Source: Antedon mediterranea
Lineage: Eukaryota > Animalia > Echinodermata
Direction of reading: 5' to 3'
Length of the DNA: 64,000 nucleotides
NCBI RefSeq assembly: GCF_964355755.1
Contig: NC_092673.1
Location: 5,084,001 to 5,148,000 of the forward strand
Positions 13,553-64,000 of this stretch are shown piece by piece; within the stretch, counting starts at the first letter, position 1; the number at the start of each line of letters is the position of its first letter. The notes under the pieces were generated by a model. It was not told the origin of the DNA. It made no database searches and worked only from the letters and a program-made list of their open reading frames with translations. Both the position numbers and the translations under genes were made by a program.

Positions 13553-15314
13553 TTATAAAGGTAGGTATGACTGCGTAGGAGGTGCAACCATCAACAAATT
13601 GTCTCTATTGGTGTACGTTGGCAGTGAAGTCGGTAGCGATTGGTGGTACGGGTATTTAGAACACACTGGGTAACCCATATAACTGGTATCGTACGTCGGT
13701 GTATCAGTCACCGAATTCGGTGGTAGTGGAGAGTACTTGGTAAATTCGCTGTTGAAGAGGTTCTGCGATGACGACATTGAATGTCCAAGCATAGAATTGT
13801 TCATACTGTAGTAACCATTGGTGAATGTTTGGCTGTACATCGCTTGCGGTAAACAGCTCGATGTTGTTGTCTGTAAGGAGGTCGACATCTGGAGATGAGA
13901 TGCCGGTGCGGAATGTACTTGTACTGGTACGTTTGGGATGCCGCCGAGGTTTGGATGTACTGCTGGTAGGTTTGACATGGCGAGCATTGTTGAGGTGTGT
14001 GGTTGAGGTAAACAATCTTGAGGCATTGTTGGTATAAGTCCTGGTACTGTGCAGTGATTTACTCTTTTCCATTTCATTCGACGATTCTGGAACCAGGTTT
14101 TTATCTGAAAATAATAAATGATGTAAAAACGTTAATCACATTGTTAAACATACATTATTGTAAAGGTTATATGAGAGAATCATCATGAAAGAAACCCAGT
14201 TAATAAATCTGTTAATGTCTTTCTAGAACAGGAAAATAGAAAGCATATAAAATAATAATTTAGTTGCCAATTTGATGACGAGACAGTTTGGAATGATGTA
14301 CACCAAGTTAATAATACAGTATCTTTACAGCTATAAGCTACGGCTAAGCGAGAACAAATAATAATTTGGTTGTCAATTTGATGAAAAAGTAGAGAATGTT
14401 TGGAATAGTTTATCTAGGCCAATTAACACGAAACAAAAGTAAAGTAATAAGATCTTACCTTAGTGTGTGATAAACCAATTTCAGCAGCAAGTTTCATGCG
14501 TTCATCGGTTGTCAGGTATTTCTTCTTGGCAAACGTAGCTTGGAGATCACGCAGTTGGTTGTTGGTGAAGACAGTTCGAGCTTTCTTCTTCAAGGTACCA
14601 GATTGAGAACTACCTTCGGACGATGGTGATGGAGAAACTGTAAAATAAAACATATAAATTGTTAGTAAACGCACATTTGCACAATAATTATGGGGATTGG
14701 AAGAGACGAATTATGTTTAAAACATATGTAGATCATATTCAATTCATGGAGATTGGAATAAAATAAACAAATTATGTTTCAAATGTAGATCGTTTTCAAA
14801 ATCAAATTAGTAGTTAGTTAGTCAAACAAGCGATATAATAAGTACGAAATATGATTTAAAGAGAGCTTAGCTTTAGAAATGATAAAAATTACAAAATCTT
14901 ACCTTGTTCGGGAGTTGAAATTGTACTGGTCTGATCGATAGTTAAAGATATCTCGCTGTTTTTACTAATTTGTTCAGATTTGTTCTTCGAGGCATCGTCT
15001 AATTCAGACTTCTCAGCATGTTCATCAAAAGTTTTGAACAGACTTTGCGTAGAATAGAAGTCGTCTGCTGAGTTGCCAAATAGTATGTTTTCAGATTTCA
15101 ACATGGATTTAGAATAATCGTCGACGGGGTTAATGGTAGTCTTCCATAGCGCTGGATTAGTATACTGGTTAAACATTGAATACGGTGACAACCCATACAT
15201 ACTGGTGTTGTTAGACGGTGTATTTCCAAAGGTAGATGTTGGTGGCCGTAGGCCTACGTTATCAAACGGGTAAACTCGGGTAGACGATTCTAGTGAACTT
15301 GTCTCAAGATGCAT
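13553..15314 (-). CDS. ANTP/NKL-class homeobox transcription factor (Vent/Bsx/Nanog-like), 3 exons, ~380 aa
   Basis: Exons 15314-14903, 14637-14459, 14104-13553 with GT-AG sites and consistent phases (1, 0). Homeodomain KKKARTVFTNNQLRDLQATFAKKKYLTTDERMKLAAEIGLSHTK|IKTWFQNRRMKWKR, intron at the classic position 44/45; P/S/T/Y-rich C-terminus. Confidence 0.92.
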
Positions 15315-16516
15315 GTTGTCTCTTTGATGTCACAGTGAAGTGAAATCCTGGAATAACTTTACCAGCTTATGAAGGTATGCTGACAAAAGACAATGGTAAC
15401 ACTTCAAAACAATGCTTCAATCAACCTGTGACTCAAGACACAGACGCCGCTTTCAATTCTTTCACATGTTGGTTTCACAGCGCGTGAAAAGAACTAGAAA
15501 AGCTTTCGGACAATAGAGCTTGGCGTGAGTGACGACATTGATCTAAGGGGTGGCTAGAGCTGGGGGTATTGTTCACGTTCTCAGGGCGTGTGTCAACATA
15601 CCATTCCATTATCTTAGGCCATAATCCATAACACCTTTTGGTTCTATTCTAAAAACTAGAATTAAGACAAAGACGCGACAACTCCCAATTTCCTACGACA
15701 CGCAAAGTAGGAAAAATATTTGGTGTGGAAATTGTTAACAATGTCCCCTTAAAGTACCCAAATATTTATATCATACTTATTATTTTTCATGTTTCTATAT
15801 ACTATTAATTAATTAAAGGAAACCGGTATTATAATGCTTCTATAAAGTAACCGCCATAAAATACTTGAATATAAACATCGATCATGATTTATAAAGTATT
15901 TTTACTAAATTGTTTTTGATATAGTAATGTGTTTACGAACACAATCTTTAATTGTAGTAACAAGGGCCTAGTTATAATAGTTTCGATTATAAAAACCGTT
16001 ATGTATGTTAAATAATAATTTAACTGATTAAACTAAATGTTAAAAATAATATTGATGTTAATTAATATTAACAAATAAATTTGTAAAAGTAAAAATATGT
16101 GAACTACAAATTATTTTAATTAATAGTTTATAATATAATATATATATATAAAATTGAAAGTATGAATTTATGTATGCAGGGTAACAAAAAACAAATACTA
16201 TTTTTCTTTTTGTGGAAATAGTACCACTGTATAATATGTTTGTGTACTTAAATTGTTATCTATTTTAATCTTACTTTTAATCTGTCTATATATTTTATTT
16301 TAATTTTGCTTTTAATCTGTCTTATTGTTTTTACATTAAATGTTAATATACTTTCTAGATCAAAATTGCAAATAAATTCTTTAGCACTGAAAGTATTTTT
16401 ACCAAATTGTTTTTGATATACAGAATGAATTAATGTGTTTACGAATAGTGTGCCTAACTATAATAGGTTACATTATAATTATCGCTTATGATAATTGCTC
16501 TATGTATAGATATCTA

Positions 16517-24734: not shown

Positions 24735-27700
24735 TCAATGTTTCTGAAGCATATTCTGTAGTTCCTCAAGTTCTCGTTTCTTCTGTTCATATTTTTCAAG
24801 CAGCAACGCATCCGTGTCGGTAGATGGAGATGGCAAGAAAGCTGGTCTGTGGGATGACAACGGAGTATCGTGTATACCTGTAACAGGGGATGCATTCTGG
24901 AAAACCTATAATGAATAATAGAGTATATATAGATATTATTATTAAATATGTTATACTTGGTGGATCTTGGAACAAGAAAATGGTTAAATAGCATTTCTTA
25001 ATCAGTATAAAGACCAATTTACACAGACGAGCTGTAACGGTAAGCGGAAAGCCATGCTTGTCCTACGTAGAACCTGTATTTATTCCAAACGGAAACCGCT
25101 CGTCCGCTCCTTGTTGTGTATAAATGGTCATAAGGAATAACATTCTATATATAAGATTCTATAATTGTTATTACCGTTGCCACTCGTCTGTGTAATTTGG
25201 CCTTTAGGGAGTTTCGATTGACCTGGGAACTACACACATTGTGTTTTTGAACACTGTCAATACCCCCTAACCTCTCTAAACATTTTTATTTTTAGAATTT
25301 AAATACAGAGAACCTATCTTTTGGGACACCCCTACTAAGATAACTTCCTGTGAAATGAATGAGTAATACTGTCGACTCCGCCTAAGTCGAATTCGCGTAA
25401 GTCGAAAAATCGCGAAAGTCGAATTTTTAGGAAAGTCCTAATTCTTTCCTATACATTACTGTGTAATTTTTATTTGTAAGTCGAATTTTTCTAAGTCCGA
25501 ATACACACATTCTTTAGTGATTTATATCGTATAAGTCGAAGTCACTAATTACGCGGCAACAACGTGCTAAAAAAGCCGATGAAACGTACGTAATTCGATA
25601 AACAAACAACACAGGGGATAATGTGGGACCATATCGGTTCTCTCAAGCAGGTTGTATAGTATAGGTGGCGTCCTACAACTAACTCGCGCTAGTGTATAGT
25701 GTATGAGTTGTTTAAGAGTTGAGAACTTGAGCGGCGTTTTGTGGGTACGTACATACATTTTAGAAACAAGTTAACCACTACTATTAGAAATCGGAAAAAA
25801 GAATATTATATGGTCCAGTTTGAACGAAATAAACAAGATATTAAAAAAACGTGGACAATCCTAAATGATATAATGGGTAGGAAAAAGACTACCAATTTGC
25901 CTACAAAAATAAAATTGGGTACTGAGACTTTCTCTGATAATGATGAGAAAGCTGATGCATTCAACTCTTTTTTTATTAATATTGGAGAAAAACTAAATAA
26001 TAAATTTAGGCATGAATCTCAAAATGAAGAAATCACCCACAGAACTTTCTTAAAGAGAAATTTTACCTCTTCAATGTTTTTTAAGCCTGTTACTGAACAT
26101 GAACTTAACCACTATATTAAAAACACAAAGAATACTTCTCCTGGCCATGATGGTATAAGTGCCCAACTCATAAAATCTGCTTCCCCGTTTATTTTAAAAC
26201 CTTTATTGCATATTATTAATACGTCATTATCATCGGGCTGTGTCCCGGCTGATATAAAAATTGCTAAAGTTATCCCGGTATTTAAGAATGGTGACATCTC
26301 CGATATAAATAATTATCGGCCTATTTCCATTTTACCCTTTTTTTCCAAAATATTTGAGAGGATTGTGTATGATCAAACGATTTGTTACCTCTCAAAATAT
26401 AACGTACTGAGTAAAACACAGTATGGATTTAGACAACACCATTCAACTAGTCATGCTTTAATACAATCGATTGAAAAAATCACAAACGCTATTGAGAATA
26501 AAGAGTTCACACTAGGAGTTTTCCTTGATTTATCAAAAGCGTTTGATACAATCGATCATGATATATTATTAGATAAGTTAAGATTTTATGGTATAAGAGG
26601 AGTTCCGCTAAACTGGTTCTCAAACTATCTTAAAAAAAGACTACAATACACATTTATTGTTAATACTGCATCTAGTAAAATGACAGTAAACACTGGAGTT
26701 CCTCAGGGATCCATATTGGGTCCATTATTATTTCTTATATTCATTAATGATATTAGTCTAGCATGTAACCATGTAGACATGATTATGTATGCAGATGACA
26801 CAAATGTGTTTTATAGTCACAATGATATTACTCAAGCTTTTGATACAATGAACCAGGAGTTATCTATACTTTCGGACTGGTTTATTGCTAACAAATTAAC
26901 GCTAAATGTAAACAAATCAAAATATGTTATATTTAAGGCTAGAAATAAGTCAGCTGACACTACCTCACTAGAATTGAGGATGGGAAATGAATGTATAGTA
27001 AAAGCTACTGAAGTTAAATTTCTAGGCTTATTTCTGGATGAAACTTTATCGTTTAATTTTCATGTAAATGAGGTAGCAAACAGTATTTCTAGAATAATTG
27101 GTGTCTTAAACAAAGTGAAGTCTATGTTATCAAGTAAAATCTTGTTAACGGTATACAATGCACTTATATTACCTAGAATAACGTATGCTATCACAGTATG
27201 GGGTGCTACTTCTGCTACAAACTTAAACCGTATACATATTCTCCAGAAAAAAGCACTTAGAAATATTTGTCATGTTCATTTTATGCATCCTTCTCATCCA
27301 CTTTTTATTTCAACCCAAACATTAAATATTTTTGACCTTTATACGAAACACACTGCTATATTTATGTATCAATATAAACATAATCTATTACCTGAATCAT
27401 TTAATAACTTATTTAGTACATCTGCCTCATTCCATAATTACTCAACTAGAAACAGGTCAAACTACTGTCCACAACTAAAACGCACCAAAGTCGGACAGCA
27501 ATGTATTTCCTACCAAGGAACACATATTTGGAACAATTTAACAGACTATATAAAACAATCCCCCACTTTAAGTTTGTTTAAACAGAGATTAAAGCAATAT
27601 TATAACAATAGAAATATTTAAGTTAAGTAAATCACATTATGTTATTTTGGTTTGTTCTTTTTGTTTGTACTAATTGTTTGATCTTTTTGTTAGGGTTACA

Positions 27701-30700
27701 TGCTTAAAGCACTTGTGCTTATTTTGTATCCCATTCCATTATCTTATTATTTGTATTGTATTTGTATATGTTTTTATTTTGATTATGGAATAAAAATGTC
27801 GATGAATTGAATTGACCTATTTTGTGCTAGACAGATGGCAATAAACAATGGATACCGATTTCAAATAAGAACCGAAATGTATTTATTATACGTTTTTGTA
27901 TTGTTTTGGGCTTAAACCATAAAAGAAAATACAGTTTATCATTGCCGATAAAGAGGCTTAGCATTTATTAGGCCTAGCTAGCTAGCTAAGCAAACTCAAT
28001 TCAAGAAGGCTCATCGCGTGGGCCGCGATCGCGACAGGGCAGGGTCCACTAGGCCTAGCCATAGCGCGGCTAGTGAGCGAACCTAGGCCTAGGCCTAGCA
28101 TTTTTTTGGCAAAGTCGAAGTTCGCGTAACTCGAATTTTTATACCGGTCCTATTAGATTCGACTTAGGCGTTTCAACAATATCTACACTTTGTTTGGTTA
28201 AGAAAATGTCCCTTTAATGGCAGTCATACTGTATTGGATGCTGATGTTACCAACGGTTTATTACAAACACTGCTTCAATGTTTGACGAGCTAGATTGACA
28301 ATTGACAACAACATGGATGGTAAACATCAAAAAGGATACAGAACTTTTCACATGCGAACCTATACACATGCTTGCTCAAAAACGTACAGAGTGGCGAACA
28401 CAAGTGAGACGCCCAATGTCTAACAACGATTAGCGTTTAAGATGATGATGAGATTGACAATTAAAAGTGTGCATCACCAACAAGCTAAATCTTTGTAATC
28501 TACCATACCTTGTTTAAGACTTCATTTGTGGTGGGATCTGCAACTTCAATATAATTCCATCCATCGTCATGCGACATCAGTTTTATATGCAAAAGCTTTT
28601 CACCTTGCCCAAGAACATCTTTAACTCTCTCAATAGCTCCCTCAGACCATGCACTGCCTTGGTCTGGACGGGTTCCTTAAATAGAAAAAAACAGAAAAAG
28701 TTTATACTCTAAAATTCATTTACCCGATTCAATAAAATGATGTGAAATAGAAAAGAAAGAAATAATGATGGTGGTACATTGGAGCGTTTCCACATGAGGG
28801 CGTGGTTTTGGAATAGTCCATTATTGTTCAGAGGTGTTCTAGAAACTTGTTAGTTTCGTATCCAAGCCCTCCCTGAGGACAGCATGGGCAATTGTCGGTT
28901 TATCCAGGTAAGCTAGGCACGAAATAGACAATGTGTAATACGTATGATGCATATCGCTCTTGCCACTGAACTTCTACTTATGTTAGTAGCTCTCGTGTTA
29001 ACTTTCGCTGACCAACTCTATAGAACTTAAAAACTAGTTGTCTAGTATCTGGAAATTAGTCAAACTTATTGATAGCATATTGGGGAGAATTCAACTATAG
29101 TTATTCAATATTATATTTTTGGGAAAAAAACTAAGATTAATCATATTTTTTTGCAACAGCATGTCAACAATTAGCTGGTTTTAATACACAATTTTAAAAT
29201 TATTACTGCAATGCTGAAAGTTTTATCACATAATAGATAGAAACAGATAAATAATACAGTGTCAAAAATATTGGTAAAAAAAACCTACCAGCTAAGCAAC
29301 ACTTTATAGCTAAGCATGGTGTAGTTGAAAATTCCTTGTCGAGTGGGTGAACGCTGTCAAACGCAACCTTCGCTTTGTTGCCATAATCTACATACTGGAC
29401 AGAGGCACACTGATTGTCGACGTTAACATCCAAAACAAGAGCTCTGTACCAACTCTGGTCCTCTTTTAAGAGAATGAATGAAAAGCAGTCAATTTCAAAT
29501 TACACTCATTGCATATTTCTGTGACCATTAACTTTATGTTAAAATCAATAGTTTAATCTTCTGGTAATTATCAATGAATGGTACATAGCAGTGTGTAATT
29601 TTGTAAAAGCTTGGAAGAGAAAGAGGCCTGATTTGGATGATTCGTTGAATCATCCAAATCAATCATTCAATCATGGTAAACCTGCTAGAATTCAGTGTGT
29701 GACACAATAAACAAATACATGTGTGGATAAACAATATTTGAATAATAATAATAAACATTTTTAAAGCTCTGTTTACCGATGTCTCAAAGACCATAAAAAA
29801 TTATGAAACGGATGAGATTGACTTGAATTGCTTGATAATAGATTGACACGGACAGATATGGAGTGGAGCTGGTTCCAAACCAATGGTGCTTCAGTTATAA
29901 AAAAGCTTCAAGGTGTGTTTTTGGAATAACAGCCTCATCCAGAATAAAGACCTTTATTTGTATCAGGTAATAGTATACATGTTGTTATAAGAAGTTGGGC
30001 AATTAATATCATACATACCTGCAAATATACTGCAGCACATCTCGCCCTTCCTTGGAACGTAGTCGTAATTCTTTCCCTTGTTGGCGTATCTTATGTTTAG
30101 GCTTTCCATAAGGTTCTTAAGTGCAAGAATATCTGAAATTAGAACAAATAATAAATTTAAATAAATCAAATTAGGATACAACAATAAAGGTCGATAAAAA
30201 TACATATATGTATTGTTCCATCTTTATGCTTCAAACTCATCGCCTTGTTCTTTGGATGAGATGTAAAGCCGTTGGTCGTGTGAAAATAAATATTAAATAA
30301 CTTGGCATGCAATTAGGGGGATCGCCTCCTGGTGTGGTGATCGTGACACTATGGCTGCTGTAGGCCTGTACAGGCCTAATCTGCATAAATTCTTTTTGGT
30401 TACATGACGAAACTTAAGAAAGTTTAGTGAATACACATGTATATTGACTGCATGCCAAAATATCAAAATGAGCCTCACCACTTATAGGATTGGAACATTG
30501 AACATTTTGCGTTTCTTTTTTATCCCGAATAATGCGATGTTTGTCGTTGATGTTCTTAAGGAGTCGCAAACTGCCAACTCTAGAAAGATGAAGACCACGT
30601 CTGTCCAGAGTGGAACGATCCACGGTGCCATCATTTAACAGAAAATTGACATCGTTGTTAATCTGTATACAACCGCTTTGCACCGACAATTCCCGGAGTT

Positions 30701-33700
30701 TATAGTTTAACTTATTGACATGCGCTTGAAAGGATCCATCATCAAACCGAGGACATACGGTTGAGAACGCAATGGTCAAATCCGGCGCCCTCCTCTTTAG
30801 ATCGTCGAAAATCTCATCATAGACACCCTCTGCAAATTTCTCATCAGCTTCTGTCGTGCAATCGTTCGTACTGCCGTGAATTATTACTGTACTAAATTCA
30901 TGTACAGGCGCTTCATCTAAATGATGTTTAATGTCGATTACTCTTCTCCCTCGAAGACACACAACTTTTGTATTTTCTAGAATATCTTCGTCAAAGTCTC
31001 TTACTATCGAGTCGCTGATGATAAGTGTTTTGGGCTCGGACCTAGCATCTAGTGGATCATTAGTTACATACTTTGTAGACTCGACTGTTGTAGGAACATC
31101 TAATAGAAAAATGATTCTATAATGCAATATCGAACGTTGAAGGCAAATAAATCATATGTTATTTTTATTGGCCTATGTCCTCCCTGAACTAAATGATTCT
31201 CTATTTCTTTTTCTTCTTGTCTTGTACGTATCCATGTTGATTTTTGTCAAAAATAAATGTTGAATTGAGAAACAATAACTAATAATGATGATGTCGATGA
31301 GATGAGTAAAGACACAGATAACAATAGACAATTAAATAAAGACAAATGGATAACTCTTGAAATTATAATTAAAAAGATGAAGGTTGAGGATTAAGATACA
31401 GGATTAGGAACAATATGATGAATATATGAAAATTTACGAGGATTAAGGATTAAGACATGGATTAATTACTTACCACCTTCCACCCTTGTACAGTAGAACT
31501 CAGATGGACTGACGACATACATAACAGTTGCTTTCGTTTCGCATTGTAACTCCAACTCTCTGAATACAACTGTTGGAACGTTTTTATCGACTTCTGAAAA
31601 TAATCAAATGATAGTACAAACATAAATATAGAAATTATTATTATTACATTATTTATAAAGAGATTAGAATTTTAAATGGTCTTATTATGTCTAAGTAACT
31701 GAAAAATGAAGAAAAAAAAATGTTTTAAATGGTAATATGTAATATATCTTCAAACACTTGGTTCAGGTATTTTTATGATGGCACAATTTTTGTTACAAGG
31801 TACTCTGGTTGGCAGGCAAAGTTAAATAAGCCCACTGTTAGGGATTATAATATTTATAAACTAGCCCAAGATTGTTAAGTGATTATTTCCACAAGCCCAC
31901 AAGAGACATTTCAGGTAGCCTCTAGTAATTTGTACCAATACACACCAGGGCTACTGCTACCCCAATCACAAATTAGCACTACAGTACATGTTCCTCATTT
32001 TAAACACCTAACGTTCTGTCTACACCATCAAACTAGTTGGACAAAAAAAAGTGTGATGTGCCCAAATATGGTAGTGATATGACATTATCATGTCCATATA
32101 TGAGCACATCACATAAAGTTTGATAGTGTAAACAGAGCCTTAGGCATTTAATCAACTCCTGCTTAAATTCATAAATGCATAATATTTCACTCACGCTTTG
32201 GCGATTGTACTGGAACGATGTAGTCTGCATTTATTGGTCGGTTGGAACCTTTTTTGTCAAATATCTCAACAAGACTGACTCCTTTTGGCGTGATACCAAC
32301 TCTTTTCACTCCAACAACTTTGTTCACAAACTACAATACAGTAAATGAAAATTAAAATTTGAAACATGAAAACATAATCCATGACCCCACTCTAATCATA
32401 TATTCTACATATGGGATAAATGAAATCTGTTTGTGTTTACAAACTAACGCTCTGTCTACATTACCAAACTTTATGTGACAACACAATGTGATGTGCCCAA
32501 ATATGGTAGTGATTTGCTCAAATATGGTAGTGATTTGCCCAAATATGGTATTGATATATCATCATCCCATATAGGCACATCACATTTTTTTGTCACGTCA
32601 AGTTTGATAGTTTAGACAGAGTTAATAGATAAACCATGAACATAAAACAATGTGATGGGGTATAATTTTGTTTCGGATTGCTTGATTCTGATTGGTCAGA
32701 AGTTTATTACTGTATCTGTATAGAAGGTTACCCAGATCATTATATGTTATTACTTCTTCCATGGTTAAACATACAATTATTCGTATTGTTCTGTTACTTT
32801 TCGGATTGAAGACATGATTCAAAATATTATACAAACCTTTTCCGCAAATTCTTGTGACTGTTTATCTTTTGGATTATCAGTGATTGGAGCACCATGCAAG
32901 GCACAGTGGATGGCTACAACTGGAATTTTGGAATATGGCTCTTTGATTCGGCGAACATCTTCTTTCTTGACTGGATCAATGTTTCCGTAGTCAATAAATT
33001 TAACATTCAGTTTGTTAGTACCGATACTCAAAACTTCTGCTCTGTACCAGTAGTCATCACTGAACTTCGCGATGCACAATTCTCCAACGACTGGCAAATG
33101 CACTTCTTTTATATTGCTGTAATCTTCGGACATTGGGTCACTAATTTGTTGGATGGCACGGACGGAGGTTGGTTGATTGACCTGAACATAAAAGCTACTA
33201 GGTCCATTTGCAACGTAGATCATCGCAGTTTCTATTTTCCCCTCTTTCAATGACATCATTTCACATTTTTCTGCCATTACCGGGCTAGGAGGTATATTCT
33301 GATTGTTGAACTTTTGAAAGTTGCTTGGCTGATGTTGATAACCATTGTAAGTAGAGGTCTTGCCATCATTTCTGTAAGAATTTTTACCTCTCTGTTCTTG
33401 ATTGCCATAGTTTTCTGGTGATTTCACATCACCATTCATGGGAGATCTATTATTATAGGTACTCCTTTGTCGATACGAATCTTGGTTACTGCTGGATGGA
33501 CTTCTTTCTTGAGGTGTAGTATTACTGTATCCTTGCCGCATGACTGGACTACTTTTTTCTTGAAACTTTGTCGGACTGTCTTGAGAAGGTGTGGGCAACA
33601 ACGGCGATTTACTTTCTGTTTTTGTGTTGTCACCGGTCAATAGCTCAATCATTAATATGCCATTCACTTTTCCAGAAACTTGTATTTTGATCCTGGTTTC

Positions 33701-36700
33701 TTCCAAATCCTTTACTGACTTCATAACATCTTTTCCCCTAGAGTTGGCCAAGCTACAGGTCACCAACTGCTCGTCTAGTTTCAGAAGGTATTTTGAAAGT
33801 GGATGGCAGTCTGTTACAGATATTACCTCTTGGTTCCCATAGTCAACATATAACACTTTAACCTTTGACCCATTAACTGCCAAAATACGCCCACGATACC
33901 AATAATTATCGACAAACTTTGTAGCACAAATTTCTCCCACCTGTGGACTATAGAAATGTATATAAAGTAATACAGATTTATTAAAAAATAGATATATTTA
34001 TATATATAATTGGCATGTTGACACTTAAATGAAGTAAAGTTTTTGGTACACTAGTGTTTCCTGTGAAATTAATGTAATGTTAAGTTGATAATGTATCAAC
34101 GTTTCGCTTTCTAGGCCTAGATGATACCCATGTAAAGTGATACATATGTCCTTTATTATCCATATAAAATAAACCAATTCTATTTTACCTATTCCTATCC
34201 AAACAAGTGATCTTAAATTAAATTTACAATTGTTAACCATATCTAAATAAACATCAACGGAAACAATTCATTGGTGTTTTTTTCCTTGCTTTTAAATGTA
34301 TTCAATCGCAACCTCACAACTGTAGCAGACTCGGCTAAAGAATGGACAAATACCTGTAGGTCTGGTTAGATGGAAGGATTGAGTATCGATTCATCAGGGC
34401 GTCTTGAAGTTCCATTAACGCCAACCCATTCTCCGACAAAGTAGCAAATATGGCAGAGACACTTTCTACAGATGTAACCACCACATCAAGTTTGTCACCA
34501 GTAGAAATCTTTTCCATGACACTGGGCAGAACTGTATGTCTTGATTGCTTCGGTTGTGCAAATTTCGCATCTATTAGCTTTTTCTCAACACAAATCTCTG
34601 GTAAACACAAAAAACAGAATGCGTTGCCATGATTTAATTTCAATGATTAAACACAATTTAATTTATTAAATAAATGAGGGATAATGTATATAACACTACA
34701 GCCCCTTAATGTGCACACGAGCAATATGTATACACTGGACCTACGGTTTATAGTCTATATCCGAGAAGACTTGTTCTGTCACCAGAACCATGGAGCGAGT
34801 GAGCCTCGAACCCTTGCCGATGTTATGGCTATGGATTACGGTTCCACTGTCTTAACCGCTAGGCCACTCACTCGCACATGTAACACATATACCTACACAT
34901 AAGTAAATTGGATTTCCTCACTCTTTTTGTTTTTTTCATCAACCCCTTGAAAATTATACATTACCTTCTTTTCCTTGTGTCATAGTAATAGTTGCTGGGT
35001 AAATGCCATTTTCGATTTTCTTCAGGTTTACTTTACATTGTTTGTTGACCAGCATACTGACCAGGTAATCACAGGCTTCAGTTGACCACTTCCCATCGAT
35101 AGGTTCGATATCTACAAGCTTACACGGACTGGCCTAAATTAAGAAAAGAAGAACCGTTAACTTTACGTTTTTTATTGACCCAACACAATGTTCTCCCCAG
35201 GATTAAGATAAAGTACCGACATAATTCACCGGAGGTGGAATTACACCACTCAATGACTTTTCTTAATTTTTTCAAAGCTCAACAACTTAGTCTGCCTATG
35301 AAAGTCTATCTACAAGCTCCTACATATAGTATAGGGCCAGGCCTAGAAATCGGCCAGAAACCTTTATTTACCTGTACAACTTTTAGTGGATATATGCGCT
35401 ATATAAATTGTTATATTATATTATATTAATGGTGAATGCAATATTGATGAAAGGATATTAAGAATTTGACGTTAAAATCACAATTATTATTATTAGATAG
35501 TGAACCAGCTCTGTTTTCCAATGAACACTATAAAACAGCATACATATGAATAACATACCAAAATTGGTGTCTTGCTAAATTGTTGAGTCAAGTGACGTAG
35601 GTCCTTAGGATGAATGTCCCTAATGTCACCATAGTCAATTAAGCGTACAGACACAATGTTGTCCTCTTTAATCTCCAGGATTGTACCTCTATACCATTCC
35701 TCATCTGTTGTAGCTGCACACAGCGTACCGACCTAGAGATAATAATAACATTAACATGAGTTGTCAAGTGTGTTTATGGCGAGACCAACATTTTGTGGGT
35801 TGGCCTGGACATTTTTTTGAAAATTCAATCTTAACTTTATGTGTTATGGATGACCCTTTTTTCACCTTGCCCTAAAATTCAATTTCATATTCAGAAATAA
35901 CCTTTGACCACTAGCAAAGTATCATAAGTTGTTTAAAATTCAGGAAAACACATGCTTTGGGACACCCCCATTAAGGGCCAACATGTTCTAACACTAACAC
36001 CAATCCAATAGCCCTACTTACAGGACATTTTATAGAGGCTCTACTCTATGAGCATGAATAATCCATATTTACCTTAGGTTTATAGGGAGAGCTGTTATCC
36101 ATGGCATTGTATATATCAGTCATTGAGCATATCAATGAAAAATATTCTTTGCTTTTTGTCTGCATCAACTGAATCCAAATTTCATCAGGACTAACAAGAT
36201 GTATTGCAAGTGCCTGTGAAGTGAAAAAAACAAGTTAAAGTGCCAAGTCAAGTCAAGTCTCATCATTTGTTTTAAGAAAAAACATAGACATTCTGTTTGC
36301 TCTGTTGGCGGAGCACAATATCCAACGGACACAACACGAACTCAAAAACAAAAACATTACAAAAAAAATGTCTACATTATGTTTAAGGCTCTAATAGCTC
36401 CTGGAAAGAAACTATTTGTAAATCGTGCCTTATTGGCCTTAATACTGGGTTAGCACTAACATTTCATTTTGTTTAGCCATTTGGCGAAAGTCAAAATATT
36501 TTTTTTAGTCAAATCAGTTTATCTATAGCCAAAATGGCTAAAGTCAAATTTTTTTATTTAGCCAAATGAATCAGTTTTTAGCCAAAAATTTAAAATTGTT
36601 GAAATATAATGGTAAAAACATTTTAGTCAATTTATCTATGTCAACATGTCTATACTGTTCCCTTAACATTTTTGTAAGGCATTGAGATGGAGAACCATGC

Positions 36701-39700
36701 CTAAATCACTGTATGTATGATTAAAAAAAAATGTTTGTATTTGTTTTATATGATCAAAACAATTGTTCAAATTGTTTTTAATCATACAGCATTCATACAG
36801 TTATCAATTTAATGAGAAACATTTTACAGTTTTCCGAAATCCCCTGAACGCTGTTACTTTTGTTTTTTTACGCTTGGCTGGTCATGTTTGTGTGATGGCT
36901 TCTATCGCGTACCAGGCGAAAATCATGTCCTAGACTTCACGGTCACTCAGCGTCACCGCCGCGCAGCAGGTTAATGTTTTTAAATTGGGTATGCTCAAGA
37001 GGTGCGAAAGTGCAGTACCGCCGGCCTAGGCCTACAAATTATGTACGACGGTATGTCGTATGCTAAAAATATTGAGGAAAATTCCCTCGTATCGTTGTTG
37101 AACCTAAGATAATATAGGCCAAAGCACAGAGTACACGTCTTTCCATCCCTCAAAGCTGCGTCAAAGCGTTTCTGTCAGGGCGAGAAATTTACACCGTCCC
37201 GATTATTTATTTACACAACAACACAGAAGCCGACGGCCGGCCCCGCTCAGCTGTAAAAATGCACGTGTGTGTTTAGCTAAATCCCTGTTAGACTCTACCA
37301 TTTCCCGCATGTTGTTTTGTTTCCTCTACTGACGCACGATGGAAGTTTATTACAGGTAAAATATGAAACTACATTAAATTGGAAGAGTCTAAAATGCATA
37401 ACGCATAAATTGTTGATTTCGATAAGATTAAGACGTCATTCATCGAAGATACTATGTTTCTTTTTAATCAGAAAAGTACACCCCTATCGAAAAACAGACA
37501 ATCCCGGTAATTAGCCGACCGTCGGCTATCGTAGTCGTTTGTGCAGCGCACAACACGTGATAGTTTGGGTAGACTTCACATCCATGTGTCGTGTAACGTC
37601 TGTCTCTCTATGCAGTCTACCTCTGCTATCTTTATCATAAGCCCCTTTCTCACAGATGTGTCTGCAATATACCGGTACAATGCTGGCGTCGTGCCGGTAT
37701 CGTTACCGGCATATACCCATTCTCATCGGACTATCGTGCCGGAAATATAACCGGTATATACCGGCTTTCTGTGAGAAAGGAGTCGGGCATATTCGGCCGA
37801 TAAAAAGTCTCTGACAAAATAATTATTGAGGGCGTCCTTTATTGTTATTATTTTTGTCTAGGGATATATGGCGGCGAATGTTAGGTTACAGATTATTATC
37901 TTCCTTTATAGCATATTTATGCAATACATGCTATGTACAGTATATTGTGCATATATTATACAGGTACAGCAATTAATTAGCCGTCATCGGCAATCTGTAA
38001 AACACCTTAGAAGGCTGTACAATTTACAAGGCGACGAAGGGTCAGGCTAGTTAGGCACCAACAAAGAGCTAGGCCTAGCCCTAGGCATATATGGCCTAGA
38101 GGCCTGCTATAGATTATGCTACAAATTTCTTCTTGTCCCCTTATTTTAAGCAGCTCTCTTATCTCATTATCCCTCCAGTTCGACATTATTATTGTTAATT
38201 GAATTGGCGCCAAAGTGATACACTTGACCGCGCAAGGTGTCTGAAGCCTCGACAGGGAACCCCGGAATATAACGGCGTTACGTTCTCACAGAATGCCCGT
38301 CTGGCATTGCGGGGAATATCCCTAGAATATTACTAGGTCTAAAGCAGGTCATGTCGATGCCGGCATGGTGCCGGCATGATGCCAAGACGACCCGTTCTCA
38401 CAGAAAACCATACCGGCATGGTAATGGTATATTCCCGCAATATTCCAGGCACTCAGCTCTGTGAGAAAGGGGCTATATTGAAATAACAAAGAGACGCCGG
38501 GTACAACGAAACAAGTTGACGAAAAATGGAGCTTGAAATAAACAACATGATAACGAACAAAATAAATCCTTGGAGATCAACAAATGGACCTTTTAGTTGG
38601 ACTTTATGCTTTCGCCAAAATGATTATTTGATTATCTATTTTATCATATGACATCGCCAAAATGGCTAAAGTAGCCGTTTTATTTTTCGCCAATCTGGAA
38701 ACGTTTTCGCCCATGGCGACTTGGCGATAGGCCAGTGCGAGCCCAGTAATAGAACGAAATCGCCGACCGCTGCGCTTCAACTGGAACATACTAGAGGCCG
38801 GATGAAATTGATCCTCTTTGATAGCCACTGCCTTTTTCAGAAGAAGATCCGAAAATATGTTCTCCAAAGGCAATTGAGCAGATCCAATTATAGGCTATGC
38901 AGTCTTGACTATTCTATTTAGCGTTAAAGAATACGTTATGACACTCTCTATAACTGACCTATAGAAGGACGACATTATTTCAGAGTTTATACCAAATGAT
39001 CCAAGTGACACAATGAAACATTTATTGAAATATATCTTATTTAATGCTTAAGCTCTGTCTACACTATCAAACCAGTTTGAAAAAAAAAATGTGATGCACA
39101 CAAATATGGTAGTGATATGATCACTATGTCCATATATGGTCACATCTCATTTTTTGTCACATAAAGTTTGATAGTGTAGACAGAGCTTTAGTTTATATCA
39201 TCTTTTCATATTAGCTAGGCAAACCGAATATTGTTTTCAGCTTAACTAATAAATTTGAATCAATTTATAAAAAAAAAAAATATATATATATACCGTATAT
39301 GACCTAGTCTTGAGGAGTTGGAAGGGAGCGAAGTATCAAGTTTGAGGAAAATTGGTAAATGGGATTATACTCAATATTGCATGAACCAAAGTCTTGTCTT
39401 GAAATTAGCCTGAATTAGGGGTTGGGCTTATACTTGAGAAGTGATTATACTCAGTTGTATACGGTGCATTAATCCTTGTACAAGATTATATACAATAACT
39501 ATTCAAATTAATTATTACCTGTAATTCTTGTTTTTCTGGTTGAAAATAATCCAGATCCTTCAGATAGATATAACTATCTTTTTTGGCAAAACCTCCAAAC
39601 GCCTCTAGTCTGTTATTAAAATTAAAACTTTCATTAAATACAGCAGCAACAAATTATCACTTTCTTTTCATAATCATACTGGCATAGATATTCATAATAC

Positions 39701-42700
39701 TATATTCTTAAATCGGACGAATTAAGTGAGGTACCAAATCCTAAAGTAATATACTGCAACTACTGTAATATATACATATATACATATATATAAATCCAAA
39801 GGCAAATTACTAAAAAAATGACAATGCTGTGGGTATCAGTGGCTGGATCTTAATGGAGATACAAACAAAAAAACACAAAAAAGCTAAATCAAAACGATAA
39901 AGTAAAACAGCAAGAAAAGTTAGCAGAGCTTTCGGGCAACACTAGCCCTTCATCAGTGCAAGTGAAGGAAACGTATATATATATATATACATCAGGCAAT
40001 GAACATTAATTCTAAACCGCCCGGTGATATACTGAAATTTAATTAATTAATTTGAAACGATGAAGATGAGGAAATCTGTGAGAATGAGGAAAAGTCACCC
40101 CAACCGAGACTCGAACTCAGACCGTCTGCTTGATATGCAGTTGTCCTAACCATTAGACTACTGGGGCTTTCGTGGTATTGTTCAAACTCGATTGGATAGC
40201 GACTCTTTAACATTCTCGGCGTGGTACGGCGGAACAGCACTAGTCCTCAATTGTACGCACGCGCACCAGAGATCAATATCTATTAATCTAAATAAAAATG
40301 TCAAATATAAAGTGTTAAATCAATCCAATTGACAATATATAGCTTTCAACAAGATACTGTATATAATTTGGAGTAGCTTGAGTTGGATGGGACATATTCT
40401 AAAGCCTTGTCTACACTATCAAACTTTAGGCGACAAATATATGGACATGATGATGTCATATCACTACCATATTTGGGGATATCACAAACAATGGACCACC
40501 TACTGAAATGCCCACTTTTGAATCAGAGATGCACAGCAAAGACCTTGCTGAATTCAATGATGCTGCTCATGATTGTGTGCAGCTGTGGCTAAAACACAAT
40601 ATCTAATTTGTGGTTTCGATGAGAAGACTACCATATTTTGACACATTACACTATTTTTGTCAAAATAGTTTCATAGTGTAGACAGAGCTTTAGAAAAGAT
40701 CAACTAGTAAAGAGAGAATTTAAAGTTAGAGGTAGAAGAGAAAGAGGACTGCCAATGGCGACATGGAAAAATATGGTAAAGAAAGGAACATGATGCGGAA
40801 GACAGAAAGAAGTGAAGAGATAGTGTAGCAACCTGGAATAAGTGACAATCAGTAACCCCTTGGAAGAGGAAGAAAGCCGACTCAAATAAAAGACGATAAT
40901 TGGTTAATAGGGATTTTAAGAAACATTGACGGTTAGGGAAAGACTAAGGAGATTCTGTGTTCGCTGGAGTGTAAAATCATATAGACAGGTTCCATTTCTC
41001 AAAAAACGGCCTAGAAAACGAATCAAGAAGCATTTTTGGGTAGAAGCTGGTATCCACTTGGTTTAGGATATTTCGACCTCGCTGATTACGAATATGGCGG
41101 ATCCCAAGCGAAATTCGGCCATCTAAGCCCTTAATTTGCATAATTAAAAATGGCGGCCATTTTTTATAATTACCCTATATCTCGAGAACCACTAGTCACA
41201 GATAATTAATTTTGGTGTCAAAATGTTTTAAATATATGTTTTTATATTCACTTTAATGACACATTTTCTCAAAAAATTGATGCAAGTCGTATTTCTGACA
41301 TTTTGACCTTTGACCTTGATTTATCGTATCTCAGTAACCAATAATCGGAGAGACACGAAATAGGGCTCAAATTGTTCAGAAACTATACATTCATATTTAT
41401 TATAATGAAATGTTTTTACAAAAAATGGCCGATTCTACAACTATTGACCTTTGAACTATTAGTCAAATATAATAATATAATAATAATATAACTTTGAAAA
41501 TTGTGGTCTTATGAATTTTTTTTTCTTTTTAAATTGTTTAAAACATGTGTGTTTCTATCCAGTCTAATGGCATATTTTGTACAAGAATGGCCGATAGTAT
41601 GGTTATTGACCTTTTAACTACAGCATAGGCCTACTGTATACTAAATATAATATAATTGCATAACTATGAAATTATTTATACACAATAATAATTAGTAAAA
41701 TTATAAAATTCACTGCCATCAAATATGATGTGTTATGATTTATATAGATTTAAAAAGGAATTTGAATACGCAAGTTACATTTTTTGAAATTTGAAATTTG
41801 AAATTACCTGCCATCAATATGATGGAGTGTGCTTATAGATTTTCTAAAATGTGAACATGTCAGCTACATTTGGAAATTACCTGCCATCAATATGATGGAT
41901 TATGATTATAGATTTAAATAAAAATTTGAACACGTAACCTACATTAGAAAATTACCTGCTATCAATATGATGGATTATGATTATAGATTTAAAAAAGAAT
42001 TTGAACACGTCAGCTACATTTGGAAATTTGGAAATTACCTGCCATCAATATGATGGATTATGATTGTATAGTACCTGCCATCAATATGATGGATTATGAT
42101 TATAGAATTAAAAAAGAATTTGAACACGTCAGCTACATTTGGAAATTGGGAAATTACCTGCCATCAATATGATGGATTATGATTATAGATTTTAAAAAGA
42201 ATTTGAACACGTAAGCTACATTTGGAAATTTGGAAATTACCTGCCATCAATATGATGGATTATGATTGTATAGTACCTGCCATCAATATGATGGATTATG
42301 ATTATAGATTTAAAAAAGAATTTGAACACGTAAGCTACATTTGAAAATTACTTGCCATCAATATGATGGATTATGATTGTATAGATTTAAAAGAAAATGT
42401 GAACACGTACGTAAGCTACATTTGGAATGAACATGTTAAGGGCATCAGTTAAGATCATTCATGCAAAGGTTTCCGTCATCTTTAGCGTTGTTACAGCGGC
42501 ATAAAGCTGTACATGGTAGTTTTGACTTCTTGCACCTACATCTATTGGTTATGTATCGTGTCTTGCATCCACAATAAATCATCTCTAACGAAGCAGTAGG
42601 AATAGCTTCATTTTTCAGAAGCACTGGTTGAAGTTTACCATTAGATAGCTCCCAACCAAAATATGTTGGTGATGGCAAATGCTGGATTGGCGATACAGCT

Positions 42701-45700
42701 TTTTTCCATACGAGTGCTTGGAAGTGTGCTCTTTTTATATGTTGGTGCACTGCATCGCTTGGTGGAGGTAATGCCTTTTTTTTTTAAAGCCTAACTTTAT
42801 TGGTACTTTTAACTTGACCAACACCGTAAACGTAGCAAATGAATCTTTCCGATTTCATAATAACTTGGTCACTGATCGGTTTTCTCCCAGGTCTTTAATT
42901 AGTTCATACCTTTTTTTAATACTTCTCATGCCGATGCCTTTGAGTGACCACTTAGATATGAGCAGTGAAGAGTTAAATTACTGTATGTATGTATTAATGT
43001 AATTTAACTCTTCCCTGGATATGAGGTAGTATCGCATCCACTAATAGTGTGGAATGGAATCAGTGCTTTTGCAGAACCCTCGGGCAAGGCTTGAAAAATG
43101 TCTTTTATAGATACTTTCTTTTTTTGGATGTCCCTGTCATCATCCATTTGGATACCATGCTTTGGTAGTGAGACACTAGAATCACTAGTACGTCTGTATC
43201 CCTAGAAGCAACTACAACTGTGTCGTATCGGACATTGGCAGCATGACAAGTCTCGTGTCCGATTCTTCATGGTCTGACCAGAGACAACGTATTCGTGTAC
43301 AATTTTGATGATTTAACAACTGATTCTTTCATAAATGCACCAGCTGTGACAATTTCTTTGTCTATAGGAGCTTGACGAATCAACTCCTCTGATAGAAATC
43401 GTGTCAGATCTGCATTATTATCTTGTAATGCCAACAAGTTTGACCAGCAATTTGGCAGCGGTATTTCACCACTTTCTATAATTCGACGAATTGGTCTCTG
43501 TGTTTTGGTTCATCTTTGTCTGGTGGTGTCCTTTATCGACAGTTTTAAGTTAGGCATGCCATGTTTAAAAAAAAAAAAAAATTACCTCCAACAAGCGATG
43601 CAGTGCACCAGCATCATATAAAAAGAGCACACTTCCAAGCACTCGTATTGAAAAAAGCTGTATCGCCAATCCAGCATTTGCCATCACCAACATATTTTGG
43701 TTGGAAGCTATCTAATGGTAAACTTTAACCAGTGCTTCTGAAAATGAAGCTATTCCTACTGCTTCGTTAGAGATGATTTATTGTGGATGCAAGACACGAT
43801 GCATAACCATATAGATGTAGGTGCAAAAAGTCAAAACTACCATGTACAGCTTTAATATGCTACTGTAACAACGCTAAAGATGACGGAAACCTTTGCATGA
43901 ATGATCAAAACTGATGCCCTTAACATGTTCATCCCAATGTAGCTTACGTGTTCACTATTCTTTCAAACCTATACAATTATAATCCATCATATTGATGGCA
44001 GGTAATTTCCAAATTTCCAAATGTGGCTGACGTGTTCAAATTCTTTTTTAATTCTATAATCATAATCCATCATATTGATGGCTGGTACTATACAATCATA
44101 ATCCATCATATTGATGGCAGGTAATTTCCAAATGTAGCTGACGTGTTCAAATCCTTTTTTAAATCTATAATCATAATCCATCATATTGATGGCAGGTAAT
44201 TTTCTAATGTAGCTTATGTGTTCAAATTCTTTTTTAAATCTATAATCATAATCCATCATATTGATGGCAGGTAATTTCCAAATGTAGCTGACATGTTCAC
44301 ATTTAAAAAAATCTATAATCATACTCCATCATATTGATGGCAGGTAATTTTAAATTTCAACAAATGTAACTTGCGTGTTCAATTTTTTTTTTAAATCTAT
44401 ATAAATCATAACACATCATATTTGATGGCAGTGAATTTTATAATTTTACTAATTATTATTGAGTATAAATAATTTCATAGTTATGCAATTATATTATATT
44501 ATATTCAGTATACAGTAGGCCTATGCTGTAGTTTAAAGGTCAATAACCATACTATCGGCCATTCTTGTACAAAATGTGCCATTAGACTGTATAGAAACAC
44601 ACATGTTTTAAACAATTTAAAAAGAAAAAAAAATTCATAAGACCACAATTTTCAAAGTTATATTATTATTATATTATTATATTTGACTAATAGTTCAAAG
44701 GTCAATAGTTGTAGAATCGGCCATTTTTTGTAAAAACATTTCATTATAATAAATAAGAATGTATAGTTTCTGAACAATTTGAGCCCTATTTCGTGTCTCT
44801 CCGATTATTGGTTACTGAGATACGATAAATCAAGGTCAAAGGTCAAAATGTCAGAAATACGACTTGCATCAATTTATTGAGAAAATGTGTCATTAAAGTG
44901 AATATAAAAACATATATTTAAAACATTTTGACACCAAAATTAATTATCTGTGACTAGTGGTTCTCGAGATATAGGGTAATTATAAAAAATGGCCGCCATT
45001 TTTAATTATGCAAATTAAGGGCTTAGATGGCCGAATTTCGCTTGGGATCCGCCATATTCGTAATCAGCGAGGTCAAAATATCCTAAATCAAGTGGATCCC
45101 AGCTTCTACCCAAAAATGCTTCTTACATCATATTTCAGAGGAAATAGAACTTGTCTAATAGACAAAATAGCCGTTTTATTAGTTACACACGCTTGCTCGA
45201 CGATGACAGGCAGAGACTATGCCTTACTACTATAAAGGCCTAGCTACTACTAACCAATATTATGTCTATTAGCATTCACTTTACTTACCTGGCTTGAATG
45301 GATTTACAATGCAACTTGTGTGAAGGCCAGTGTTTCTGTTGACATGCTTGTGTGCAATATTTACTCTTGCACGCTGAGCAACATCGCATTCCTACAGTTT
45401 AGTAAGCGTGAAACATTCTGTTATTATCAACTAACTTTTTTAAGTGTTTTAAGAAACGTAATCAAATTAAGAATTTCAAATTATACATATTTGAAAACGA
45501 TGGTTAAGGGTGACAGCATGACTGAAGAACTAATTTTTTTTTTTTATGAAATTTATCTTACCTGGACGTCCACAGTTGAGGCAAGGAGCAATAGTTGTTG
45601 TTCCAGCGCCGTCAAAATGCTGGCTTTTACTAACAACTTCTTGTTGGCCCTTTGAAACACTTGTGTCAACCACAGAAACATTCTCACTTGGCTGCACTTC

Positions 45701-54703: not shown

Positions 54704-54914
54704 ATTCTATATGAATTGTAATTATCCAATCTTATTTATTTTATAATAAATTTTGCAATTAAAGATTATTTTAAGATTTGAAAAAAATCTCTCCAGTGTC
54801 TAGTCAAAATAATTTTGTCAATTGGTGCAACACTCCATGGAATAGAATCAGAAACAATTTTCATTTGATATTGATTATTTGATTAATTTTAGAACATAAA
54901 AGGCCATTGAGAAG

Positions 54915-64000
<9,086 letters not shown>

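What the first reader, a model, noticed from the sequence alone, without database searches (positions are those of the whole stretch)
30479..31099. Retrotransposon-type SGNH esterase apparently exonised in-frame into the piRNA-pathway gene TDRD1
Seen: a 207-codon stop-free segment on the host gene's strand, with a polypyrimidine/TAG acceptor and a G|GTGAGG donor. It is phase 1-1, exactly matching the donor of exon 31593-31474 and the acceptor of exon 30132-30019, and the open frame ends ~21 codons past the donor. It has SGNH blocks I (SDS), II (G), III (TND) and V (GLHLS; the DxxH Asp is displaced), with flexible linkers at both ends. I see no ORF2 or LINE tail next to it. Established: SGNH esterase domains occur in ORF1p of CR1/L2/RTEX-group LINEs. 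Inference: a transposon RNP-protein domain was captured as a (possibly alternative) exon between the N-terminal strands and the helix of extended Tudor 4. It could give a transposon-silencing scaffold a lipid-binding/deacylase activity or a mimic that co-assembles with LINE RNPs. I know of no Tudor-SGNH fusion.
Basis: partly seen in the sequence, partly recalled or inferred. Interest (0 to 1): 0.9.

Follow-up and report, generated by a model that had tools for sequence, protein, structure and literature searches.

The report
Retrotransposon esterase exon inside TDRD1
In a feather star, a piece of a jumping gene's protein is spliced, in some transcripts and not in others, into TDRD1, a gene whose relatives help silence jumping genes; the piece is predicted to fold as a weakened esterase and is likely kept by selection, but its job is untested.

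Summary
Confirmed. Window 31099-30479 (-) is a 621-nt, phase 1-1 cassette exon of the TDRD1/Vreteno gene (RRM-MYND-4 Tudor) of the crinoid Antedon mediterranea. One RNA-like run holds both inclusion joints and the skip joint, all GT-AG. RefSeq models both forms. The exon encodes an SGNH domain (AF2 pLDDT 92). Its nearest relatives (up to 52%) are PHD-coil-SGNH-CCHC ORF1 proteins, six of them seen just upstream of a LINE ORF2. It is single-copy, and no PHD, CCHC or ORF2 remnant flanks it. Ser, Gly, Asn and His are kept; the block-I Gly is Ser; the missing triad Asp is a trait of the donor clade. For selection: open frame, lost flanks, constrained substitution profile. Against: CpGs not yet depleted, no orthologue found (Anneissia's RefSeq protein lacks it), both variants seen are non-synonymous. 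An RNP mimic is unlikely, as the coiled coil is missing. The kind is known (Lyosin-type LINE ORF1 exons). An esterase exon inside a piRNA-pathway Tudor domain was not found in print, and it parallels Oskar. Tissue, catalysis, function and age are untested.

The parts
30479..31099 (-). Cassette exon, 621 nt, phase 1-1, derived from the esterase part of a LINE ORF1
   Evidence: frame, splice sites; X1 contig covers exactly 30479-31099, both joints; RefSeq inclusion models
30528..31031 (-). SGNH core (exon residues 23-190), with linkers of about 22 and 16 residues on either side
   Evidence: pLDDT 94-98 over residues 21-190; best PDB hit 4c1b, E=1.9e-20; Z about 20 to SGNH hydrolases
31008..31016 (-). 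Block I codons: Ser28 where relatives have Gly, Asp29, nucleophile Ser30
   Evidence: Gly in 140 of 141 rows; Ser30 in 136 of 141; codons
30588..30605 (-). Block V, DRRGLH: His170 kept, Arg at the canonical acid position
   Evidence: His 143 of 147; Asp at 167 in 88 of 147 rows overall but 6 of the top-50 rows
31474..31593 (-). Upstream host exon: N-terminal strands of extended Tudor 4
30019..30132 (-). Downstream host exon: helix and start of the Tudor 4 core
   Evidence: both joints end here
31100..31473 (-). Upstream intron, 374 nt, 28% GC, no PHD or coiled-coil remnant
   Evidence: best profile score -3.8 bits, inside the range of 32 control introns
30133..30478 (-). Downstream intron, 346 nt, no CCHC or ORF2 remnant; holds short pieces of other repeats
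   Evidence: best profile score -3.9 bits
24738..49449 (-). Coding span of the host gene, TDRD1/Vreteno type: RRM, MYND, four extended Tudor domains
   Evidence: Pfam on the Anneissia orthologue; its exons map in order along the window; PMC10711660 passages

Best explanation
This is a cassette exon that is spliced into some TDRD1 transcripts and skipped in others; it derives from the esterase part of a LINE ORF1, is predicted to fold as a self-contained and likely weak or inactive SGNH domain, and has likely been kept by selection as a folded module that would alter what Tudor 4 can bind. Steps. (1) Shown: two splice forms, normal TDRD1 and TDRD1 with 207 extra residues inside Tudor 4. (2) Shown by homology: the donor was a PHD-coil-SGNH-CCHC ORF1 of an endonuclease/RT non-LTR element; the clade is probably RTEX-like (recalled motifs, not tested). 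(3) Inferred: a copy landed in this intron in the sense direction, splice sites in the two linkers put the esterase in frame, and the rest of the element was lost. (4) Inferred: the skip form keeps normal piRNA-scaffold function, so the long form was tolerated, then held under frame and fold constraint while some active-site positions drifted. (5) Inferred, untested: in germ granules the long form works as a splice switch on Tudor 4, with a ligand- or protein-binding surface in the manner of Oskar's dead SGNH domain, and not as an RNP mimic.
For: Splicing. Origin: 24 of the top 25 relatives carry a PHD upstream or a CCHC downstream, 20 both. The exon nests with four such proteins (P0023/24/25/27, SH-aLRT 82-85). 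In 6 of 16 related loci the ORF is followed after one in-frame stop by a long ORF2, with endonuclease and/or RT domains by Pfam in 5 of the 6. Best PDB match is the ZfL2-1 ORF1 esterase, and the transposon-type His and Ser of PMC3905857 appear to be present as H74 and S112 (equivalence read from motif position). Selection: single-copy depth at 90% likeness (41.9 in exon and flanks). No ORF1 remnant in either intron, while simulated neutral decay hides both flanks in 0 of 60 pairs at 0.1 substitutions per site, 10% at 0.2 and 72% at 0.3; at 0.2 the exon stayed open in 0 of 4000 runs. The terminal branch is about twice that of its three nearest relatives yet distributed like a constrained fold (slow/mid/fast 0.17/0.43/1.20; neutral part 0.00-0.01, bootstrap upper limit 0.17). 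Fold.
Against: No orthologous exon found. Only Antedon proteins carry Tudor plus SGNH among 21 hits, 1 hit among 912 longer candidates, 0 among 600 shorter; the Anneissia RefSeq protein is the skip form. Synonymous CpGs are not depleted as in the host exons (odds 1.06 against 0.37, p=0.02; NCG:NCA 10:10 against 34:95, p=0.04), which suggests youth, though one host exon is also undepleted (0.88). The exon matches 33 of 40 strongly conserved family columns, while most relatives match 36-40, and differs at 6 of 46 slow sites against 1-2 of about 42 in its sisters. Both variants seen in run X5 are non-synonymous, though at variable sites (P64S, S69R). The decay simulation has no large deletions, so fast loss of the flanks by deletion is not excluded. 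A neutral phase of up to about 7% DNA divergence fits the bootstrap limit (my conversion). The fusion model leaves Tudor 4's N-terminal strands undocked (pLDDT under 50), but only three true Tudor rows cover them and there was no skip-form control. Tissue and protein are not shown.
Confidence: 0.5

Rival explanations
1. Young tolerated passenger: a recent ORF1 fragment happens to be in frame; only the reading frame is policed, the skip form does the work, and the domain is starting to decay.
For: CpG not ameliorated; absent from the Anneissia protein and from all protein searches; G28S, G39I, A138S and T176S at conserved columns; two of two variants non-synonymous; skip form at similar depth.
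Against: Needs loss of the PHD-coil on one side and of the CCHC plus about 3.5 kb of ORF2 on the other within a short time, ending close to the domain limits. No parent copy at 90% likeness. No target-site duplication found. Neutral component estimated near zero. Even at 0.05 substitutions per site an unselected frame survived in 2.6% of runs.
Confidence: 0.37
2. Ready-made exon: the esterase had already been turned into a spliced module in another carrier (a Ngaro or Academ-type element, or another host gene) and arrived with its splice sites, which would explain both the missing ORF1 flanks and the fresh CpGs.
For: Homology covers residues 6-200 of 206 and nothing outside. Earlier unchecked notes of this scan describe phase-1 esterase exons in Ngaro elements and an esterase exon in a sea-urchin Academ element.
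Against: All four nearest relatives have the LINE ORF1 layout; the 6 of the top 50 with neither PHD nor CCHC are short (124-309 aa) and may be fragments. No second copy in the DNA runs; no look-alike among earlier findings.
Confidence: 0.08
3. One reading: an active deacylase or lipid-binding module, or a decoy that co-assembles with LINE ribonucleoproteins and brings them to the piRNA machinery.
For: Ser30, Gly50, Asn78 and His170 are kept; the donor clade itself mostly lacks the canonical Asp yet conserves Ser and His, so a dyad could work; the host is a piRNA scaffold type (PMC10711660 passages).
Against: No coiled coil, PHD or CCHC in the exon; the ZfL2-1 esterase alone is monomeric and binds neither its coiled coil nor oligo-A RNA (PMC3905857, section 13); pI 5.98 against 10.8; Gly28 to Ser in a position whose CA makes a close contact in the nucleophile zone (PMC10792757 passages).
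Confidence: 0.05

Closest known systems
Lyosin (L1 ORF1 exon in MYL4) and the L1-RFX5, NUP42-L1, USP4-L1 isoforms (PMC12129022; first part and passages read)
   Same: A LINE ORF1 piece used as an alternative coding exon of a host gene, with the canonical isoform kept.
   Different: Those are L1-type (coil, RRM) exons in vertebrates, conserved across species with dN/dS 0.3-0.5 in most cases. This one is an esterase-type ORF1, an internal cassette inside a folded domain, in an invertebrate piRNA-pathway gene, and seen in one species only.
ZfL2-1 ORF1p esterase, PDB 4c1b (PMC3905857; first part, passages, sections 13 and 19 read)
   Same: SGNH fold; best PDB match of the family profile (E=1.9e-20); S, G, N, H kept.
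   Different: No D-x-x-H acid, block-I Gly is Ser, acidic not basic; donor ORF1s also carry PHD and two CCHC knuckles; here cut from the element and set in a host protein.
Oskar (LOTUS plus non-catalytic SGNH; PMC7250577 passages read)
   Same: A germ-granule scaffold of the Tudor/LOTUS group joined to a foreign SGNH domain.
   Different: Not homologous as a fusion: Oskar ranks far down (E=0.028) and the exon has no Pfam OSK hit. Oskar's domain is constitutive, ancient, ascribed to bacteria and has lost its catalytic residues; this one is alternative, LINE-derived and keeps Ser and His.
TDRD1 / Vreteno (PMC10711660, PMC12147562 passages read)
   Same: MYND plus multiple extended Tudor domains; RRM as in insect Vreteno, four Tudors as in mouse and fish Tdrd1.
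   Different: No SGNH insert in the Anneissia orthologue or in any other of 21 hits.
L1TD1 (PMC4161310; search listing only)
   Same: Host protein-coding sequence from a LINE ORF1, proposed to act in genome defence.
   Different: A whole gene from L1 ORF1 that keeps the assembly domains; this exon keeps only the esterase.

Membership tests
SGNH hydrolase fold | Three-layer alpha/beta fold with blocks I, II, III, V in order | tested here: met
   AF2 pLDDT 92, pTM 0.84; Z 20.6, rmsd 2.1 over 168 residues to 6njc; Pfam PF13472 at cut-off
Active SGNH esterase | Nucleophile Ser, oxyanion Gly and Asn, base His | tested here: met
   S30, G50, N78, H170 align with near-invariant columns
Active SGNH esterase | Acid of the triad at D-x-x-H and Gly of the G-D-S motif | tested here: not met
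   Arg167 at the acid position (donor-clade trait); Ser28 where 140 of 141 rows have Gly
Active SGNH esterase | Measured ester hydrolysis | not testable with these tools
   Needs an assay
LINE ORF1 esterase (origin) | Nearest relatives are ORF1s upstream of an endonuclease/RT ORF2 | tested here: met
   6 of 16 loci show ORF1-stop-ORF2, Pfam confirms ORF2 domains in 5. For the four very nearest proteins only the ORF1 layout is seen, not their DNA context
LINE ORF1 esterase (origin) | Transposon-specific buried His and Ser (H191, S228 of ZfL2-1) | tested here: met
   H74 and S112 (44 and 50 of the top-50 rows); equivalence judged from motif position, not from a residue-level superposition
RTEX clade donor | RT phylogeny places the donor's ORF2 in RTEX | tested here: inconclusive
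   Nearest locus L002 has an ORF2 only 23-27% identical to the CR1/L2-type ORF2s and a weak C-terminal zf-RVT hit; the RTEX label is recalled, no reference set was held
Intact or recent LINE copy | Rest of ORF1, ORF2, tail, target-site duplication, sister copies | tested here: not met
Domesticated LINE ORF1 exon (Lyosin type) | Spliced in frame into host mRNA | tested here: met
   (one run, contigs, 27-28 letters on the short side); RefSeq models
Domesticated LINE ORF1 exon (Lyosin type) | Conserved in orthologous loci with dN/dS below 1 | tested here: inconclusive
   No orthologous exon in three protein searches and the 50% library; no crinoid genome could be read; indirect tests are mixed
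TDRD1/Vreteno | MYND finger followed by several extended Tudor domains | tested here: met
   MYND scores 20.7 bits, just under Pfam's cut-off of 22.7; no gene tree was built
TDRD1/Vreteno | Germline expression and binding of PIWI proteins | not testable with these tools
   Tissue of X1 is not on record
Oskar | LOTUS domain plus OSK domain | tested here: not met
   No LOTUS or OSK hit on the protein

The most novel reading that the evidence does not exclude
A crinoid has independently built an Oskar-like protein: the piRNA scaffold TDRD1 captured the esterase of the very retrotransposons it polices, and a regulated splice switch adds this SGNH module in germ granules, where it binds RNA, lipid or the esterase's own host partner and retunes Tudor 4. 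If so, SGNH domains are a recurrent add-on to germ-granule scaffolds, and Oskar's own domain may deserve a re-test against LINE ORF1 esterases (25 of 92 aligned proteins, nearly all such esterases, hit Pfam OSK at E<=0.01).
Probability: 0.22. Interest if true: 0.85.

Novelty: new variant of a known kind. Interest (0 to 1): 0.6.

Why it matters
LINE ORF1 co-option is rare in print and known mainly for the L1 type in vertebrates. Here an esterase-type ORF1 is spliced into the middle of a domain of a piRNA-pathway scaffold, with both forms in RNA. If selected, it is a case of the silencing machinery taking up a part of its target, a parallel to Oskar, and a natural handle on the open question of what the ORF1 esterase binds. 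If it is a young passenger, it is still a clean snapshot of how a whole folded domain enters a conserved gene by alternative splicing.

Tried and rejected
No whole genome is held, so copy number rests on contig depth at 90% likeness only; older copies below that were not searchable. No run is on record as RNA; X1 is RNA by guess, judged by empty introns and GT-AG joints. X1 shows no cover on exons 30132-30019 and 29463-29287; the tool filters records, so this is no finding. The first, wide laying was swamped by repeats. Apparent likeness of the exon's ends to neighbouring host splice sites, and a target-site duplication: 6 local alignments, none beyond shuffles (p 0.11-0.75). Bacterial or phage source: no hit in phages or in one-genome-per-species contigs with a single-protein query that finds close relatives only. 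Single-sequence PDB search gave only weak CASTOR hits (E 0.19), rejected. The intronic LINE at 25723-27618 as donor: rejected (strand, distance, 26% ORF2 identity). ESM Atlas: no usable hit for the fusion region, generic eukaryotic GDSL clusters for the exon. The wide structure search was not run; Oskar is not among the 50 rows shown, which excludes nothing. Fusion model inconclusive for Tudor 4. No complex prediction was sent, as no binding is claimed. Kapitonov and Jurka 2003 was not held under its DOI and is known to me only from citations.
Full report
Observation. The segment 31099-30479 on the minus strand is 621 nt, bounded by TTTTTCTATTAG and GTGAGG. Joined to exons 31593-31474 and 30132-30019 it reads through in frame; so does the skip join. 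The stop-free frame extends 17 codons before the acceptor and 21 after the donor. Pfam gives Lipase_GDSL_2 at E=1.1e-7, at the cut-off.

Organism and host gene. The encoded protein is on record as RefSeq XP_071949059.1 and XP_071949058.1 of the crinoid Antedon mediterranea (924 and 925 aa, with the insert); XP_071949061.1 (718 aa) skips it. These models start at Tudor 2. RRM-MYND-Tudor is the Vreteno layout and four Tudors the Tdrd1 layout (PMC10711660, passages). I built no gene tree.

Splicing. Five runs of one organism, two samples, hold the region. In X1 one contig covers exactly 30479-31099 with 27-28 letters of host exon on each side. The joints 31474>31099, 30479>30132 (depth 16.8) and 31474>30132 (12.9) all have GT-AG ends, and the DNA runs X2 and X5 show none of them. 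Limits: one run, contigs not reads, RNA by guess, tissue unknown, short sides under the tool's 31-letter rule, depth no measure of expression. I read it only as: both forms exist at the same order. The RefSeq models may rest on the same data.

Origin. In the 50% library 932 proteins match at E<=0.001; the best are 48-52% identical. Of the top 25, 22 have a PHD upstream, 22 a CCHC downstream, 24 either (pattern count; Pfam on 32 of the hits). A scan of metagenome contigs with 19 of these gave 16 loci. In 6 the ORF is followed after a single in-frame stop by a long ORF2; Pfam finds endonuclease and/or RT in 5 of these, the sixth is cut by the contig end. The other 10 are mostly short contigs. 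In a tree of 81 domains (hits up to P0097 with at least 150 aligned residues, 9 loci, the exon) the exon sits with P0023/24/25/27 (SH-aLRT 82-85), in a wider group that holds L002. L002's ORF2 is distant from the CR1/L2-type ones and looks RTEX-like; that label is recalled. The best PDB match of the family profile is the ZfL2-1 ORF1 esterase 4c1b (E=1.9e-20).

Fold and active site. AF2 with 92 rows gives pLDDT 92 and a complete SGNH fold. S30, G50, N78, H170 and the transposon-type H74 and S112 are kept. The canonical Asp is missing, as in most of the top 50 relatives. G28 is Ser, against Gly in 140 of 141 rows; that Gly makes a close CA contact in the nucleophile zone (PMC10792757, passages). 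pI is 5.98 (family median 7.0), against 10.8 for the liposome-binding ZfL2-1 domain. The ZfL2-1 esterase is monomeric and assembly needs the coiled coil (PMC3905857, section 13), which the exon lacks. So catalysis is possible but likely weak, and an RNP mimic is unlikely. In the full-length model (27 rows) the SGNH domain, the Tudor 4 helix and the Tudor core fold, but the N-terminal strands stay undocked; with three true Tudor rows there and no skip control this is inconclusive.

Age and selection. For retention: DNA depth is single-copy at 90% likeness. Neither intron holds PHD, coil or CCHC remnants, although both are long enough to. In simulations on four ORF1 loci (60 pairs per level) both flanks became invisible in 0% at 0.1 substitutions per site, 10% at 0.2 and 72% at 0.3. 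The exon's frame survived in 2.6% of 4000 runs at 0.05, 0.15% at 0.1 and none at 0.2 (indel to substitution ratio 0.12 assumed; no large deletions). The terminal branch is about twice its sisters' and has the rate profile of a constrained fold; the neutral part is 0.00-0.01, bootstrap 95% range -0.12 to 0.17 in 150 replicates. Against: the exon keeps 33 of 40 conserved columns where most relatives keep 36-40. Its synonymous CpGs are not depleted, unlike host exons (p 0.02-0.04; one host exon is also undepleted). Both variants in X5 change residues. Three differences each and one gap in the X3 and X4 contigs over 29759-32048 were not located. No orthologous exon turned up, and no crinoid genome could be read. 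A long neutral history is excluded; a short one with fast deletion of the flanks is not. I put selected retention at about 0.5 and a young passenger at about 0.37.

Mechanism. Shown: two splice forms and a LINE ORF1 origin. Predicted: an intact fold. Inferred: capture by splice sites in the linkers, tolerance thanks to the skip form, later constraint, and action as a bulky or ligand-binding insert that changes Tudor 4 in germ granules.

Comparison and novelty. LINE ORF1 exons in host genes are known: Lyosin and three more (PMC12129022, first part and passages; 'esterase', 'CR1' and 'piRNA' do not occur in its main text). Oskar is the known join of a germ-granule scaffold with an SGNH domain, ascribed to bacteria (PMC7250577, passages; 'retrotranspos' and 'ORF1' do not occur in its main text). 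Searches for a Tudor-SGNH fusion or a transposon exon in TDRD1 gave one review each, seen as listings only; searches showed nothing on this locus. The library lacks most subscription journals. I opened no supplements; those of PMC3905857 (ORF1 list) may already hold PHD-esterase-CCHC layouts, and those of PMC12129022 may list further fusions. Earlier unchecked notes of this scan report an esterase exon in TSG101 and spliced esterase exons in Ngaro and Academ elements; they suggest that capture of this domain as an exon recurs, which lowers the surprise somewhat and adds one rival.

Verdict. Real, expressed, alternative, LINE-derived. New variant of a known kind. Interest 0.6, held down by one-species evidence and mixed signs of selection.

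Noticed in passing
window 25723-27618 (+): 5'-truncated, high-copy CR1/L2-type LINE ORF2 fragment with an open 632-codon RT frame, antisense in the last coding intron of TDRD1; not the donor.
   Followed up: partly
window 34595-49449 (-): The RefSeq models begin at Tudor 2, but RRM, MYND and Tudor 1 exons lie upstream. X1's 3310-nt contig is close to the 3330-nt sum of exons from 31474 upward, so the models are probably 5'-short.
   Followed up: partly
P0023-P0141 (alignment A2): 25 of 92 aligned proteins hit Pfam OSK at E<=0.01, two of 32 above the cut-off. The main text of the paper on Oskar's bacterial origin does not mention retrotransposon ORF1s. Worth a tree.
   Followed up: no
L002, L004, L005, L007, L008, L009: ORF1 and ORF2 are in one frame, separated by a single TAG or TGA, which hints at stop read-through or reinitiation. 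The near relatives combine PHD, coil, esterase and two CCHC knuckles, whereas PMC3905857 found no structural RNA-binding domain in esterase ORF1s.
   Followed up: partly
window 29759-32048: DNA runs collapse this stretch into one contig with 0-4 differences, while the flanks split into two haplotypes with 5 of 113 and 13 of 166 differences; X1's pieces here show no difference from the window. Low diversity round the exon could be a sweep or chance.
   Followed up: no
window 30273-30453: A low-depth (4.9) intronic contig in X1 just past the new donor; unspliced RNA or a read-through form is possible, but it is not joined to the exon.
   Followed up: no
window 31590-31593 (-): The two RefSeq inclusion models differ by one residue at this acceptor (QVD against LD), as a tandem acceptor would give.
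   Followed up: no
window 42448-43509 (-): Broken ORFs ending in a Cys-rich tail inside a TDRD1 intron; they look like a DNA-transposon remnant (recalled; no Pfam hit for the one piece scanned).
   Followed up: no
window 13556-15329 (-), 6630-8300, 54900-60677 (+): A homeobox gene, a long GAT-type simple repeat, and exons of an acidic, coiled-coil gene on the other strand (read from the translations only).
   Followed up: no
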